A stretch of 64,000 nucleotides of DNA from Alphaproteobacteria bacterium (GTDB lineage: Bacteria > Pseudomonadota > Alphaproteobacteria > UBA7887), in contig OZ243958.1 in assembly GCA_965214495.1 (NCBI GenBank), forward strand, positions 405,989-469,988, given 5' to 3'. This document shows positions 50,964 to 56,600 of the stretch, one piece after another. Each line of letters begins with the position of its first letter. Positions within the stretch are counted from its first letter, which is position 1. The notes under the pieces were generated by a model. That model did not search any database, was not told the DNA's origin, and saw only the letters and a program-made list of their open reading frames with translations. Made by a program: the position numbers and the translations under genes.

Positions 50964-53622
50964 TTGAATTTGGCGAGAAACGACTTGACCTCGTTGCCGG
51001 CGAGTGTCTTCTCCGCTCTCACCAGCCTGACATGGCTGGACTTGCAGGCCAACGGCCTGACCGCACTACCGGCGGGCGTATTCTCCGGTCTCACCGACCT
51101 GCGCTCGCTGCGGTTGAACGTCAACGACCTGACCGCGCTGCCGGCCGATGTGTTCTCCGGTCTCGCCAACCTGAACACGCTGAACGTGGGCAGCAACGAC
51201 CTGACCGCGCTGCCGGCGAATGTCTTTTCCAATCTCACCGGCCTGACCGGGCTGGGCTTGTCGGGCAACGACCTGACTGCGCTGCCGGCGAATGTCTTTT
51301 CCAATCTCACCGGCCTGACCAGCCTGAACTTGTCGTACAACGACCTGACCACGCTGCCGGCGAATGTCTTCTCCAGTCTCACCAACCTGACCAGCCTGCA
51401 CTTGTCGTACAACGACCTGGCCACGCTGCCGGCGAATGTCTTCTCCAGTCTCACCAACCTGACCAGACTGGACCTGGACGGCAACGACCTGACCGCGCTG
51501 CCGGCGGGCATGTTCTCCGGTCTCGCCAGCCTGACCGATCTGTATCTGGACCGGAATCCTGGAGCCCCCTTCACTCTCATGCTGGAGTTGGCGCGCGCGG
51601 ACGCGCAGGAATTAAACGCGCAGAGCCCCGCGCAGGTGACGGTCGAGCTCGCCGAGGGCGCGCCGTTCGAAATGATCGCCGACCTTTCGGTCGCGGGCGG
51701 CACGCTGTCCGCCGCCACGGCGACCCTGGCGGCGGGCATGACTGAAAGCGGTTCCGTCACGGCAACGGGCGCCGGCCAGGTCACGGTGTCTCTGGGCGAC
51801 CCGCCCGAGGTTCCGGCGGGTTTCTACGGCATCCGGACCGCCGTGGGGCCTTCGCTCGTCCTGTTCGAGGACAACGCCATCGTCCTCGGCGTCGATCCCG
51901 AGCTGGTCGAGGAAGACAGCGGGAGCACGCAGATCACCGTCACCGCGTCCTTCCCCGGCAGCGTAACCCGGCCCGAGGCCACCGTCGTCAGTGCCACGGT
52001 GGCGGACGGGACCGCGACCGCAGGCGAAGACTTCACCGCCGTCACGCCCTTCAGCGTCACCATCCCCGCGAACGAATCCAGCGGCACGGCGACCTTCACG
52101 CTGACGGTGATCGGTGACAACGTATCCGAGGGCGGGGAGACGCTGACGGTACAGGGCACGCAGGGCATGAGCACCGTCACGCCGGCCACGGTGACGATCG
52201 CCGACAACGACGCGATAGGGACCGTAGATATAGAGTACGAGCCGGATAGCGTTCGGGAGGACGACGAGCCCACGGAGGTTACCGTCACCGCGTCCTTCTC
52301 CGGCAGCGTAACCCGGTCCACGGAAACCGAAATTCCGTGCACTGTCTTCACGAGCGACCGTTTCGCCGATGTCGATCCCTTCACCGTCACCATCCCCGCG
52401 CTCGAATCCAAAGGAGCGGTGACCTTCAGGTTGGTGCCGATCGACAACGATCTGGCCGACGGTACGTGGAGCGTACGTTTCACTTGCGCGTTTTTCGGAG
52501 GCGTGCATGGTTACCCGGGGGTTAGAATCCTCGACGACGAGACGCCGACGGCCGTCGATCTGGAAGTCTCGCCGGCGCGGGTCGCGGAGGGTGGCGGGAA
52601 CCGCAACGTCACCGTCACCGCGTCCTTCCCCGGCGCCACCTTGTATACCGGCGCAAGCCGGCCCACGGCTACCGTTGTCGCTGTCTCGGTGGTGGACGGG
52701 ACCGCGACCGCAGGCGAAGACTTTACCGCCGTCGCGCCCTTCAGCGTCACCATCCCCGCGGACCGAGGGCTCGCCACGGAGCGTTTCTCGCTGACGGTGC
52801 TCGACGACGACGTGGACGACAGCGAGGAAACCGTGAAGGTGACCGGAACGACCGCCGGCCTCGATGTCAACGAGGCCGTCATCACCATCGCCGACGACGA
52901 GGGCCCGCCGCTCGTGAGTCTGGCGCTGGCCCCGGCCGCGATCGGGGAGGACGGCGGGGTGAGCACGGTGACCGCGAGCCTGAGCGGGACGTCGAGCGCG
53001 GACACGACCGTGACGGTGGCGGCCGAGGCGGTGGCGCCGGCGGCGGCGGGCCATTTCACGTTGAGCGAGAACACCACCCTCAGCATCGCGGCCGGCGAGA
53101 CGGGAAGCACGGGCGTCGTCACCGTCACGGCGGTGAACGACGAGGTGGCCGCGCTGGACAAGGAGGTGACCGTGTCGGCGACGGCGGCCAACGACCAGGG
53201 GGTGACGGCGCCGGTCGACGTGACGTTAACCATCGAGGAGGACGACGCGGCCGGGATTACGGTGACGGCGATCGACGGCGACACCACCGAAGCGGGGGGC
53301 GAGGCGACGTTCACGGTGGCGCTCGACAGCGCGCCGACGGCGGACGTGAGCATCGGGGTGAGCAGCGACGACACGGGCGAGGGCACGGTGGCGCCGGCGA
53401 CGCTGACGTTCACCACCGGGAACTGGAACACGGCGCAGACCGTCACCGTCACCGGCGTGGACGACGACGAGGACGACGGCGACCAGGACTACACCGTTGT
53501 TCTGGCGGCGGCGACCAGCACCGACACCAACTACAGCGGCTTCAACCCGGACGACGTGAGCGTGACCAACACCGACGACGACGCGGCCGGCGTCACGGTG
53601 ACGCTGCCGCAGGGGGGAGACC
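50964..53622 (+). CDS. Second large autotransporter adhesin, fragment 2 of 4 (frame 0): about 8 leucine-rich repeats (NDLTALPANVFSNLTGLTSLNLSY), Calx-beta domains, and the first 348-bp repeat.
   Basis: ORF 50964..56147 makes sense only up to ...AAGVTVTLPQG at about 53620, where a G6 run (G5 in all other repeat copies) shifts sense to frame 1. Confidence 0.7.
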
Positions 53623-56600
53623 TCGCTGACCACCACCGAAGCGGGGGGCGAGGCGACGTTCACGGTGGCGTTGGACAGCGAGCCGACGGCGGACGTGAGC
53701 ATCGGGGTGAGCAGTTCGGACACCGGCGAGGGCACGGTGGCGCCGGCGACGCTGACCTTCACCACCGGGAACTGGAACACGGCGCAGACCGTCACCGTCA
53801 CCGGCGTGGACGACGCCGTGGACGACGACGACCAGACTTACAGCATCGTGCTGGCTGCGGCGACCAGCACCGACGCCAACTACAGCGGCTTCAACCCGGA
53901 CGACGTGAGCGTGACCAACACCGACGACGACGCGGCCGGCGTCACGGTGACGCTGCCGCAGGGGGAGACCTCGCTGACCACCACCGAAGCGGGGGGCGAG
54001 GCGACGTTCACGGTGGCGTTGGACAGCGCGCCGACGGCGGACGTGAGCATCGGGGTGAGCAGCGACGACCTGACCGAGGGCACGGTGGAGCCGGCGACGC
54101 TGACGTTCACCACCGGGAACTGGAACACGGCGCAGACCGTCACCGTCACCGGCGTGGACGACGACGTGGACGACGGCGACCAGGACTACACCATCGTGCT
54201 GGCTGCGGCGACGAGCACCGACGCCAACTACAGCGGCTTCAACCCGGACGACGTGAGCGTGACCAACACCGACGACGACGCGGCCGGCGTCACGGTGACG
54301 CTGCCGCAGGGGCTGAGCTCGCTGACCACCACCGAAGCGGGGGGCGAGGCGACGTTCACGGTGGCGCTGGACAGCGCGCCGACGGCGGACGTGAGCATCG
54401 GGGTGAGCAGTTCGGACACCGGCGAGGGCACGGTGGCGCCGGCGACGCTGACGTTCACCACCGGGAACTGGAACACGGCGCAGACCGTCACCGTCACCGG
54501 CGTGGACGACAACGTGGACGACGACGACCAGGACTACACCATCGTGCTGGCTGCGGCGACGAGCACCGACGCCAACTACAGCGGCGCCGACCCCGACGAC
54601 GTGAGCGTGGTGAACGAGGACGACGACACGGCGGGGATCGCGGTGACGCTGCCGCAGGGGGAGACCTCGCTGACCACGACCGAGGCGGGGGGCGAGGCGA
54701 CGTTCACGGTGGCGTTGGACAGCGCGCCGACCGCGGACGTGAGCATCGGGGTGAGCAGTTCGGACACCGGCGAGGGCACGGTGGCGCCGGCGACGCTGAC
54801 GTTCACCACCGGGAACTGGAACACGGCGCAGACCGTCACCGTCACCGGCGTGGACGACGACGTGGACGACGACGACCAAGACTACACCATCGTGCTGGAG
54901 GCGGCGACCAGCACCGACACCAACTACAGCGGCGCCGACCCCGGCGACGTGAGCGTGGTGAACGAGGACGACGACACGGCGGGATTCACGGTGACGCCCA
55001 TCACCGCGCCGATCACCACCGAAGGCGGCGGCACGGCGCGGTTCACGGTGGCGCTGGGCAGCGCGCCGACTGCGGACGTGAGCATCGGGGTGAGCAGTTC
55101 GGACACCGGCGAGGGCACGGTGGAGCCGGCGACGCTGACGTTCACCACCGGGAACTGGAACACGGCGCAGACCGTCACCGTCACCGGGGTGGACGACGCC
55201 GTGGACGACGGCGATCAGAGCTACACCATCGTGCTGGCTGCGGCGACGAGCACCGACACCAACTACAGCGGCGCCGACCCCGGCGACGTGAGCGTGGTGA
55301 ACGAGGACGACGACGCGGCCGGCATCACGGTGACGCTGCCCCAGGGGCTGAGCTCGCTGACCACGACCGAGGCGGGCGGCGAGGCGACGTTCACGGTGGC
55401 GCTGGACAGCGCGCCGACCGCCGACGTGAGCATCGGGGTGAGCAGCGACGACCTGACCGAGGGCACGGTGGCGCCGGCGACGCTGACCTTCACCACCGGG
55501 AACTGGAACACGGCGCAGACCGTCACCGTCACCGGCGTGGACGACGCCGTGGACGACGGCGATCGGAGCTACACCATCAAGCTGGCTGCGGCGGAGAGCA
55601 CCGACACCAACTACGGCGGCGCCGACCCGGACGACGTGAGCGTGACCAACACCGACGACGACGCGGCCGGCGTCACGGTGACGCTGCCCCAGGGGCTGAG
55701 CTCGCTGACCACGACCGAGGCGGGCGGCGAGGCGACGTTCACGGTGGCGCTGGACAGCGCGCCGACCGCCGACGCGAGCACCGGGGTGAGCAGCGACGAC
55801 CTGACCGAGGGCACGGTGGCGCCGGCGACGCTGACCTTCACCACCGGGAACTGGAATACGGCGCAGACCGTCACCGTCACGGGGGTGGACGACGCCGTGG
55901 ACGACGGCGACCAGGGCTACACCATCGTGCTGGCGGCGGCGACGAGCACCGACACCAACTACGGCGGCACCGACCCGGACGACGTGAGCGTGACCAACAC
56001 CGACGACGACACGGCGGGGATCGCGGTGACGCTGCCGCAGGGGGAGACCTCGCTGACCACGACCGAGGCGGGCGGCGAGGCGACGTTCACGGTGGCGCTG
56101 GACAGCGCGCCGACGGCGGACGTGAGCATCGGGGTGAGCAGCGATGATACGACCGAGGGCACGGTGGCGCCGGCGACGCTGACGTTCACCACCGGGAACT
56201 GGAACACGGCGCAGACCGTCACCGTCACCGGGGTGGACGACGCCGTGGACGACGGCGACCAGGGCTACACCATCGTGCTGGCGGCGGCGACGAGCACCGA
56301 CGCCAACTACGGCGGCACCGACCCCGGCGACGTGAGCGTGACCAACACCGACGACGACGCGGCCGGCATCACGGTGACGCTGCCCCAGGGGCTGACCTCG
56401 CTGACCACCACCGAAGCGGGGGGCGAGGCGACGTTCACGGTGGCGCTGGACAGCGTGCCGACGGCGGACGTGAGCATCGCCGTGAGCAGCGATGATACCG
56501 GCGAGGGCACGGTGGCGCCGGCGAGCCTGGAGTTCACGCCGGACAACTGGAACACGGCGCAGACCGTCACCGTCACCGGGGTGGACGACGCCGTGGACGA

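What the first reader, a model, noticed from the sequence alone, without database searches (positions are those of the whole stretch)
53605..53630. +1 G in a G5 run (10 paralogous repeat copies supply an internal control) breaks the second adhesin
In the first 348-bp repeat the sequence is ctgccgca-GGGGGG-agacctcgctgacc. Every other copy (53941, 54289, 54637, ...) reads ca-GGGGG-agacc. The extra G moves sense from frame 0 (ORF 50964..56147) to frame 1 (ORF 53665..56655). The paralogous copies act as an internal reference, which makes this the clearest poly-G +1 event in the window.
Basis: seen in the sequence. Interest (0 to 1): 0.55.

Follow-up and report, generated by a model that had tools for sequence, protein, structure and literature searches.

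The report
Extra G breaks giant adhesin gene
One extra G in a short G run shifts the reading frame of a giant surface-adhesin gene that carries two other frame-breaking defects, so it is an ordinary decay mutation or a sequencing error, not a genetic switch.

Summary
The extra G is real in the sequence. Window 53612-53617 reads G6, and every aligned paralogous junction of the 348-bp Calx-beta tandem array is one base shorter. Sense moves from frame 0 to frame 1 exactly there.

The gene (50684-60401) encodes a signal peptide, LRRs, Calx-beta domains, He_PIG domains and an autotransporter barrel. It has three frame breaks, not one:
- a +1 at 50966-50971
- this G6
- a 28-bp deletion after 56629, between CGGCGGC direct repeats

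Undoing all three gives one open 3,247-codon frame. The 28-bp deletion also ends a paralogue elsewhere on the same 3.26-Mb contig (P0241, same ...AAAPTPAT* end), so that lesion is real DNA.

The neighbouring giant adhesin has three more +1 breaks. The non-adhesin genes I checked in the window look intact.

G6 is below published phase-variation cut-offs (G7 or longer). G6 runs are under-represented in the window, and six in-frame G6 runs in the same array are undisturbed.

No independent assembly could be found, so a true mutation (about 0.5) and a long-read consensus error (about 0.37) cannot be separated. Phase variation is unlikely (about 0.07). Low interest.

The parts
50684..60401 (+). Whole 'second adhesin' gene as reconstructed. 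It is a type V (autotransporter) giant adhesin that reads in frames 2 -> 0 -> 1 -> 0 in the assembly.
   Evidence: Three edits (delete T 50971, delete G 53617, insert 28 bp after 56629) give one 3,247-codon ORF with no internal stop. Domains come from Pfam.
50684..50776 (+). Signal peptide MRRARRLLRTAPGAFAFALAVPLLAAPAALA (frame 2).
   Evidence: Read from the sequence. It is nearly identical to the N-terminus of paralogue P0241. No signal-peptide predictor was run.
50880..51560 (+). Leucine-rich repeats (72-bp period).
   Evidence: Pfam LRR_8, E = 7e-43. TRF finds a 72-bp repeat at 50979-51536.
50966..50971 (+). First frame break, a +1 (frame 2 -> 0) inside an LRR. The extra base is in cttGAATTTggc (T2 -> T3, or an extra G).
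   Evidence: Frame 2 reads ...LTSLTRLEFGEKRLD (nonsense). Frame 0 reads LNLARNDLTSLPASVF (LRR). The LRR consensus and paralogue P0241 (LTNLTELDLDGNDLTALP) show that the repeat runs across the break.
53285..57076 (+). Tandem array of 11 Calx-beta-type units of about 348 bp (116 aa), 81-95% identical to each other.
   Evidence: TRF: period 348, 10.9 copies, 89% matches. Unit alignment and identity matrix. Pfam Calx-beta, E = 7e-33.
53612..53617 (+). The finding: a G6 run where paralogous junctions have G5 or G4+C. This is the second frame break, a +1 (frame 0 -> 1).
53599..53601 (+). TGA in frame 1, just upstream of the G run. Together with the paralogue alignment it places the shift at the run.
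   Evidence: Translation ([16 protein letters not shown]).
56145..56147 (+). Stop of the out-of-frame (frame 0) read-through, after about 843 nonsense codons.
   Evidence: ORF 50964..56147 and its translation.
56629..56636 (+). Junction of the 28-bp deletion (between 56629 and 56630) and the retained copy of the 7-bp direct repeat CGGCGGC. This is the third frame break (frame 1 -> 0).
   Evidence: Unit u56409 lacks CGGCGGCGACGAGCACCGACGCCAACTA, which is present in the other units, and its spacing is 320 instead of 348. The same truncated end ...[13 protein letters not shown] occurs in paralogue P0241.
56653..56655 (+). Stop codon that ends the array frame (frame 1), 8 codons after the deletion.
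57014..58176 (+). Three more divergent Calx-beta-type units (381-384-bp period).
   Evidence: TRF. Pfam Calx-beta on 56631-60401.
58150..59080 (+). Three He_PIG (putative Ig) domains. Coordinates are approximate.
   Evidence: Pfam PF05345, E = 2e-19, 3 stretches.
59310..60401 (+). Autotransporter beta-barrel, ending ...FLRAALRW, followed by the stop.
   Evidence: Pfam PF03797, 26.9 bits against a cut-off of 26, E = 5e-6. Homologues carry PF03797.

Best explanation
The G6 is a true one-base expansion (G5 -> G6) caused by replication slippage. It lies in the linker codons CAG-GGG-GAG between the first two Calx-beta units of a roughly 3,250-codon autotransporter adhesin gene.

This gene copy is already non-functional. 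A 28-bp microhomology deletion separates the passenger from its beta-barrel, and another +1 separates the signal peptide from the passenger. The extra G is therefore a neutral, degenerative lesion in a recently decayed paralogue, not a regulatory device.

As written, translation reads 884 sensible codons in frame 0, then about 843 nonsense codons, and stops at 56147.

Shown:
- the extra base and the frame change
- the two other lesions
- the reality of the 28-bp deletion

Inferred:
- that the G itself is in the DNA of the organism rather than only in the consensus
For: 1. The 28-bp deletion in the same gene is real DNA. Paralogue P0241 (1,517 aa, same 3,261,019-bp contig, not in the window) is 420/429 identical to window 55363-56652. 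It ends with the same out-of-frame ...AAAPTPAT*. A random read error would not recur at two loci. The gene was therefore dead or severed regardless of the G, and further neutral indels are expected.
2. All six frame-breaking lesions in the window fall in the two giant adhesins (about 38.5 kb). They are at about 20060, 24324-24330 (G7), 42884-42888 (G5), 50966-50971, 53612-53617 and 56629/30.
3. None was found in the roughly 25 kb of other sequence. Fifteen checked housekeeping genes (NosR-like, deaminase, C26 peptidase, RluB, RsmD, RNase T, DUF294/CBS, PcaF, HDAC, Band 7, PurK, COQ9, Def, ThyX and an EamA-type transporter) give essentially complete family matches, and the 993-aa minus-strand autotransporter matches the full barrel domain. 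My rough estimate of that outcome under uniform error is about 0.08-0.2.
4. Five single-base lesions in 64 kb (7.8 per 100 kb) is above the roughly 4 indels per 100 kb reported for modern long-read metagenome assemblies of a mock community (PMC13087279). R10.4 consensus is reported to resolve nearly all homopolymers shorter than 11 nt (PMC9262707).
5. Another protein from the same contig, P0006, starts in mid-domain without a signal peptide. This suggests that adhesin genes are fragmented more widely in this genome.
Against: - All five single-base lesions are +1 insertions, with no -1. That is odd for spontaneous mutation (my rough estimate is about 0.03 if both directions were equally likely) and could reflect a systematic consensus bias.
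- There is no nonsense codon anywhere in about 12,800 adhesin codons.
- The frame downstream of the G is perfectly preserved: 996 open codons with GC3 of 0.97. Any inactivation must be very recent.
- Three of the five lesions sit in G runs, the classic site of long-read length errors.
- G/C runs of 5 or more are about 3 times denser in the adhesins (83 in 38.5 kb against 14 in 18.6 kb). This weakens the enrichment argument for run-associated events.
- Paralogue P0241 has no such lesion over 1,517 codons.
- The sequencing platform and coverage of the source contig are unknown.
- No independent assembly of this organism was found.
Confidence: 0.5

Rival explanations
1. The extra G is a consensus or assembly error. 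The organism has G5 here, and the G6 is an uncorrected homopolymer-length error of a long-read (metagenome) assembly, as are the other +1 events in the two adhesins.
For: - The source is a single 3.26-Mb contig held by NCBI and ENA, which must come from long reads.
- Related genomes in the same database carry long-read metagenome assembler-style contig names such as ctg6211l and ctg853950_18x_c.
- Homopolymer indels that fragment gene calls are the known residual error of such assemblies (PMC9262707; PMC13087279).
- All five 1-bp lesions go in the same direction (+1), and three are in G runs of final length 5-7.
- There are no nonsense codons, and the downstream frames are fully coding-like.
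- Per G/C run, the absence of hits in housekeeping genes is not informative. About 0.5 hits would be expected.
Against: - The 28-bp deletion in the same gene cannot be a random error, because it is shared with P0241. The gene is broken anyway.
- Two of the five +1 events are not in runs of 5 or more (about 20060, and 50966-50971).
- The error density needed (about 13 per 100 kb of adhesin, about 3.6% of G/C runs of 5 or more) exceeds published figures for HiFi and R10.4 consensus.
- An error rate that high should also have hit the roughly 25 kb of other sequence.
- Four identical CAGGGGGAGACC contexts and six G6 runs in the same array are called in frame.
Confidence: 0.37
2. The G run is a contingency tract for slipped-strand phase variation. 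Its length toggles between 5 (ON) and 6 (OFF) and switches adhesin expression in the population.
For: - The run lies inside the ORF of a surface adhesin or autotransporter, the gene class most often phase-variable in pathogens.
- A +/-1 change toggles the frame.
- A much longer tract (C13 at 18664-18676) lies upstream of the neighbouring adhesin, so repeat-based switching in this organism is conceivable.
Against: - The tract length of 5/6 is below the lengths at which switching is documented or predicted: G of 7 or more (PMC4965091), and G of 9 or more with G7 as the shortest known example (PMC5953494).
- The tract is just the codons Q-G-E and is absent (GGGGC) from 4 of 9 paralogous junctions.
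- G6 runs are under-represented relative to composition (36 against 75 +/- 10).
- Returning to G5 would not turn the gene ON, because two other lesions remain.
- No length variation could be observed, because no second assembly or reads were available.
Confidence: 0.07
3. The break is bypassed by recoding. The ribosome (P-site GGG re-pairing on GGG-G before a GGA codon) or RNA polymerase slips +1 at the run, so the frame break is overcome during expression.
For: All five +1 sites can be written as XXX-G quadruplets (CCC-G, GGG-G three times, TTT-G or CTT-G) on which a P-site tRNA could re-pair in the +1 frame. However, any insertion in a homopolymer produces this pattern by construction.
Against: - No shared stimulatory context was looked for or seen.
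- The 28-bp deletion needs a -1 or +2 event and cannot be bypassed in the same way.
- Nine paralogous junctions and paralogue P0241 read straight through in frame, so the shift is not a conserved feature of the family.
Confidence: 0.02

Closest known systems
Frameshifted adhesin or autotransporter pseudogenes in host-adapted bacteria (own knowledge: Yersinia pestis yadA single-base frameshift; Salmonella Typhi misL, shdA, ratB, sivH)
   Same: - A large, non-essential surface adhesin gene is inactivated by small indels, with several independent lesions in one gene.
- The neighbouring adhesin is affected too.
- Paralogues elsewhere in the genome are less damaged.
   Different: - It is not proven here that the single-base lesions are in the DNA rather than only in the consensus.
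- All single-base lesions are insertions.
- There are no nonsense codons and no IS elements.
- The organism is an uncultured, divergent alphaproteobacterium. Its best PurK match is 63% identical, to Rhodospirillales-type MAGs.
Residual homopolymer indels in long-read assemblies (PMC9262707; PMC13087279; IDEEL-type truncated gene calls)
   Same: - One-base length change in a G/C run.
- The gene call is split into overlapping ORFs.
- The source is a Mb-scale contig.
   Different: - The run is only 5-6 nt, a length usually resolved by current chemistries.
- Lesions are confined to adhesins.
- One lesion in the same gene (28 bp) is demonstrably real.
Intragenic poly-G/C phase variation of outer-membrane and autotransporter genes (own knowledge: Neisseria nalP and mspA, C. 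jejuni capA; reviews PMC11868660, PMC5953494)
   Same: - A G run lies inside the coding sequence of an autotransporter adhesin.
- A +/-1 change decides the frame.
   Different: - The tract is far too short and is not conserved among paralogous positions.
- It is not over-represented relative to composition.
- It is not sufficient to restore the gene.
- No length polymorphism has been observed.
Giant repetitive Calx-beta/LRR adhesins of environmental and symbiotic bacteria (intact homologue P0259: 2,989 aa, LRR - Calx-beta - autotransporter, locus L082)
   Same: - Same architecture: signal peptide, LRR, many Calx-beta units, C-terminal PF03797 barrel.
- Similar size, about 3,000 aa.
   Different: - P0259 is a single intact ORF and is only 34% identical.
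- The window gene adds three He_PIG domains and an 11-unit near-identical array, and it is interrupted three times.

Membership tests
Simple-sequence-repeat contingency locus (phase-variable gene) | A hypermutable tract long enough to slip at high rate. Poly-G/C of 7 or more is used for C. jejuni. G of 9 or more is used for Neisseria, with G7 the shortest documented tract. | tested here: not met
   The tract is G6, against G5 or G4 in paralogues. Cut-offs come from PMC4965091 and PMC5953494.
Simple-sequence-repeat contingency locus (phase-variable gene) | A repeat number not expected from genome composition alone (PMC11868660). | tested here: not met
   There are 36 G6 matches in the window against 75.4 +/- 10.4 in dinucleotide shuffles.
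Simple-sequence-repeat contingency locus (phase-variable gene) | A +/-1 change in the tract alone switches between a full-length (ON) and a truncated (OFF) product. | tested here: not met
   Two further lesions (50966-50971, and the 28-bp deletion after 56629) must also be undone to obtain an open frame.
Simple-sequence-repeat contingency locus (phase-variable gene) | Tract length varies among reads, clones or strains. | not testable with these tools
   No reads were available. No near-identical sequence was found in the protein database (best 67% identity), in JGI metagenomes or in GTDB representative genomes.
Type Va (classical) autotransporter | C-terminal beta-barrel translocator domain (Pfam PF03797). 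| tested here: met
   PF03797 scores 26.9 bits against a cut-off of 26, E = 5e-6, on 59100-60398. The terminal residue is W. Homologues are annotated with PF03797. The pass is marginal.
Type Va (classical) autotransporter | N-terminal Sec signal peptide, passenger and barrel in one polypeptide. | tested here: not met
   A signal-peptide-like N-terminus is present. As assembled, however, the signal peptide, the passenger parts and the barrel lie in four different ORF segments. They form one ORF only after three edits.
Calx-beta domain repeats (PF03160) | Significant match of the repeat unit to the Calx-beta profile. | tested here: met
   E = 7e-33, 113.6 bits, 6 stretches on 53617-56655. There are also matches on 50964-53616 and 56631-60401.
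Frameshifted pseudogene | The reading frame is interrupted relative to intact homologues or paralogues, with a coding signal continuing in another frame. | tested here: met
   The GC3 phase switches at 53617 and 56630. Nine paralogous junctions and P0241 read through in frame. An intact homologue, P0259, exists.
Frameshifted pseudogene | The lesion is present in the organism's DNA, not only in the consensus. | tested here: inconclusive
   This is shown for the 28-bp deletion, which is shared by P0241 at a second locus. It is not testable for the G6 itself without reads.

The most novel reading that the evidence does not exclude
The five single-base breaks in the two adjacent giant adhesin genes are all +1 and all sit at XXX-G quadruplets (CCC-G, GGG-G three times, TTT-G or CTT-G). 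They might be genuine and tolerated because this organism decodes them by frequent +1 ribosomal slippage, or uses short G runs as low-rate switches. That would give a graded, multi-site control of giant adhesin length. For the gene in hand this could at most yield a secreted passenger, because the 28-bp deletion still cuts off the barrel.
Probability: 0.04. Interest if true: 0.65.

Novelty: already known. Interest (0 to 1): 0.14.

Why it matters
It matters little beyond annotation. If the G is real, the locus should be annotated as one roughly 9.7-kb pseudogene with three lesions, not as three or four separate 'hypothetical protein' ORFs. It would then add an example of recent decay and gene conversion among giant LRR/Calx-beta autotransporter paralogues in an uncultured alphaproteobacterium. 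If the G is an error, it flags residual indels in the assembly that inflate gene counts. Either way, it should not be counted as a phase-variable locus.

Tried and rejected
**Searches for an independent copy of this locus.** All failed.
- The search for related loci in GTDB representative genomes with the C-terminal 500 aa gave no relative.
- The JGI metagenome DNA pattern CTGCCGCAGGGGG[N0-1]AGACCTCGCTGACC gave 0 hits.
- A JGI protein scan with the unique passenger region 51600-53282 gave none.
- The protein database search with the repaired junction gave a best hit of 67% identity.
- Exact-protein look-ups found nothing on record for the flanking genes (47503-50484, 61024-61461, 61484-62044, thyX) or for P0001, P0006 and P0241.
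- A search with the full 3,247-aa repaired protein timed out.

**Search for the source record and its sequencing method.** This gave only indirect hints, from contig names of related genomes.

**Test for a general indel problem in the window.** Full-length family matches of non-adhesin genes showed none broken. The test has little power for run-associated errors.

**Other rejected ideas.**
- No sigma-70-like promoter was found around the C13 tract.
- There are no tRNA genes in the window.
- ORF 53665..56655 is not an independent gene. It has no signal peptide, its GTG lies inside a domain, and its coding signal starts at the G run.
- The long minus-strand ORFs over the array (for example 53593..54879) are high-GC artefacts, because the GC3 phase fits the plus strand.

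
Full report
**1. The observation**

The window is 70.6% G+C. At 53604-53630 it reads CTGCCGCA-GGGGGG-AGACCTCGCTGACC, with the G run at 53612-53617.

The run lies in a tandem array that TRF reports as period 348, 10.9 copies and 89% matches, at 53282-57031. Anchoring on a conserved 35-mer gives 11 units with spacings of 349, 348, 348, 348, 339, 348, 348, 348, 348 and 320 bp. In the alignment of the units, the first junction is the only one with an extra column in the G run. Junctions 1 and 2 are identical for 85 bp to the left and 63 bp to the right of the run.

Four junctions do. Four read CAGGGGCTGA(G/C)C, which is the same length. One is divergent.

The frame change is real:
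- The position of highest third-base GC moves from phase 2 to phase 0 at about 53617.
- Frame 0 decays into R/G/H-rich nonsense after ...VTLPQG.
- Frame 1 continues [15 protein letters not shown], as in all other units.

**2. What the gene is**

The gene starts at ATG 50684 with a signal-peptide-like sequence, MRRARRLLRTAPGAFAFALAVPLLAAPAALA. Pfam gives the following:

| Domain | Pfam result |
|---|---|
| LRR_8 | E = 7e-43 |
| Calx-beta | E = 7e-33 on the array; also before and after it |
| He_PIG (three copies) | E = 2e-19 |
| Autotransporter barrel PF03797 | 26.9 bits, cut-off 26 |

The protein ends ...RAALRW. It is a giant type V adhesin. An intact homologue with the same architecture exists in another long-read genome (P0259, 2,989 aa).

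PurK is at most 63% identical to Rhodospirillales-type MAGs. A COQ9-domain protein is also encoded. The host is therefore a divergent, probably uncultured alphaproteobacterium. The window's own product 56652..60401 is in the public protein collection (P0001) on a 3,261,019-bp contig.

**3. The G is one of three breaks**

- **First break.** The signal peptide and first LRR are in frame 2. The remaining LRRs are in frame 0 from 50964. The LRR pattern and the paralogue P0241 show that a repeat runs across a +1 at 50966-50971.
- **Second break.** This is the G6 itself.
- **Third break.** Unit 10 (56409) lacks 28 bp, CGGCGGCGACGAGCACCGACGCCAACTA, bounded by the 7-bp direct repeat CGGCGGC. This returns the sense to frame 0 and stops the array frame at 56653-56655.

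Deleting T 50971, deleting G 53617 and re-inserting the 28 bp yields a single open frame of 3,247 codons. Removing the G alone would not restore the gene.

**4. A paralogue shows that the 28-bp deletion is real**

The last protein search returned P0241, which is 1,517 aa, lies on the same contig and is not in the window.
- It has almost the same signal peptide.
- It is 75% identical over the LRR and unique region.
- Its last 429 residues are 420/429 identical to window 55363-56652.
- It ends in the same out-of-frame tail ...[13 protein letters not shown].

A random sequencing error would not recur at two loci. The deletion is therefore in the DNA and has been copied by duplication or gene conversion. 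P0241 itself is uninterrupted from its ATG to that stop. Another protein from the contig, P0006, begins in mid-domain without a signal peptide. This hints at further fragmented adhesin genes.

**5. The rest of the window**

The neighbouring giant adhesin runs from GTG 18859 to 47400 and changes frame three times, each time by +1:
- at about 20060
- at the G7 run, 24324-24330
- at the G5 run, 42884-42888

All five single-base lesions in the window are thus +1 insertions, three of them in G runs. Fifteen checked non-adhesin genes give essentially complete family matches, and the 993-aa minus-strand autotransporter at 47503-50484 matches the full barrel domain. However, G/C runs of 5 or more are much denser in the adhesins, 83 against 14. 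The absence of breaks elsewhere therefore argues only moderately against a uniform error process.

**6. Real mutation or consensus error?**

No independent assembly or reads could be obtained.

For a real lesion:
- One lesion of the same gene is proven real.
- All lesions are confined to two large, dispensable genes.
- The density of 7.8 per 100 kb is above the roughly 4 indels per 100 kb published for current long-read metagenome assemblies.
- Runs shorter than 11 nt are normally resolved at consensus level.

For an error:
- The contig must be a long-read product.
- All events are +1.
- Three events are in G runs.
- There are no nonsense codons.
- The downstream frame is pristine.

I put a real degenerative mutation at about 0.5 and a consensus error at about 0.37.

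**7. Not a switch**

- Published practice treats poly-G of 7 or more (C. jejuni, PMC4965091) or 9 or more (Neisseria PhasomeIt, with G7 the shortest documented; PMC5953494) as hypermutable.
- The review PMC11868660 stresses that tracts must exceed what composition predicts.
- Here the tract is 5/6 nt and is merely the codons Q-G-E.
- It is missing from half of the paralogous junctions.
- G6 runs are under-represented in the window, 36 against 75 +/- 10.
- Six in-frame G6 runs in the same array are undisturbed.
- ON cannot be regained by this site alone.

Programmed +1 frameshifting is not supported either. Paralogues read straight through, and the 28-bp deletion would need a different kind of event.

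**8. Verdict**

The finding itself is ordinary: a one-base homopolymer change in a gene copy that is broken in two other places. The novelty class is 'already known' and the interest is low. The more notable by-products are the 28-bp deletion shared by two paralogues, the all-+1 pattern, and a C13 tract upstream of the first adhesin.

Noticed in passing
window 18664-18676: A C13 homopolymer, by far the longest in the window. It lies in the non-coding stretch between thyX and the GTG start (18859) of the first giant adhesin, about 185 bp upstream of that start. It is a much better candidate for promoter-type phase variation than the G5/G6 run, or else a hot spot for long-read length error. No sigma-70-like promoter was found around it.
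   Followed up: partly
window 18859-47400 (breaks at about 20052-20080, 24324-24330, 42884-42888): The first giant adhesin (about 9,500 codons; Calx-beta, FN3, LRR, cadherin-like domains; C-terminal end ...LQYRIRF) is also split into four frames by three +1 events. Two are in G runs (G7 and G5). G6 and G4 respectively would restore DYERGATDTTSTTPKE and PGQVTGLTAMRASFG.
   Followed up: partly
window 56629/56630, and protein P0241 (same contig, outside the window): The 28-bp microhomology deletion (between CGGCGGC direct repeats) and the resulting ...AAAPTPAT* end are shared by a paralogous adhesin elsewhere on the contig. That paralogue is 98% identical over the preceding 429 aa, which indicates recent gene conversion or duplication between adhesin loci. 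What follows the stop codon in the paralogue is unknown.
   Followed up: partly
window 20052-53617 (five sites): All five single-base frame breaks in the window are +1 insertions and none is -1. This is unexplained under unbiased mutation or unbiased error.
   Followed up: no
window 47503-50484 (minus strand): An intact 993-aa autotransporter (PF03797, E = 1.7e-20) lies between the two giant adhesins on the opposite strand. Three type V genes therefore sit side by side.
   Followed up: partly
window 62000-63300: G+C drops to about 50% (against 70.6% overall) across ORFs 62063..62809 (no family match) and 62802..63596 (2OG-Fe(II) oxygenase). This may be a recently acquired segment.
   Followed up: no
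locus L081 (ENA ERZ21742408 ctg6211l): A related genome has a 1,435-aa He_PIG autotransporter (P0002, 55% identical to the C-terminal part) in a neighbourhood that also holds a histone-deacetylase-family gene and thyX, as in the window. This may be synteny with a much shorter adhesin.
   Followed up: no
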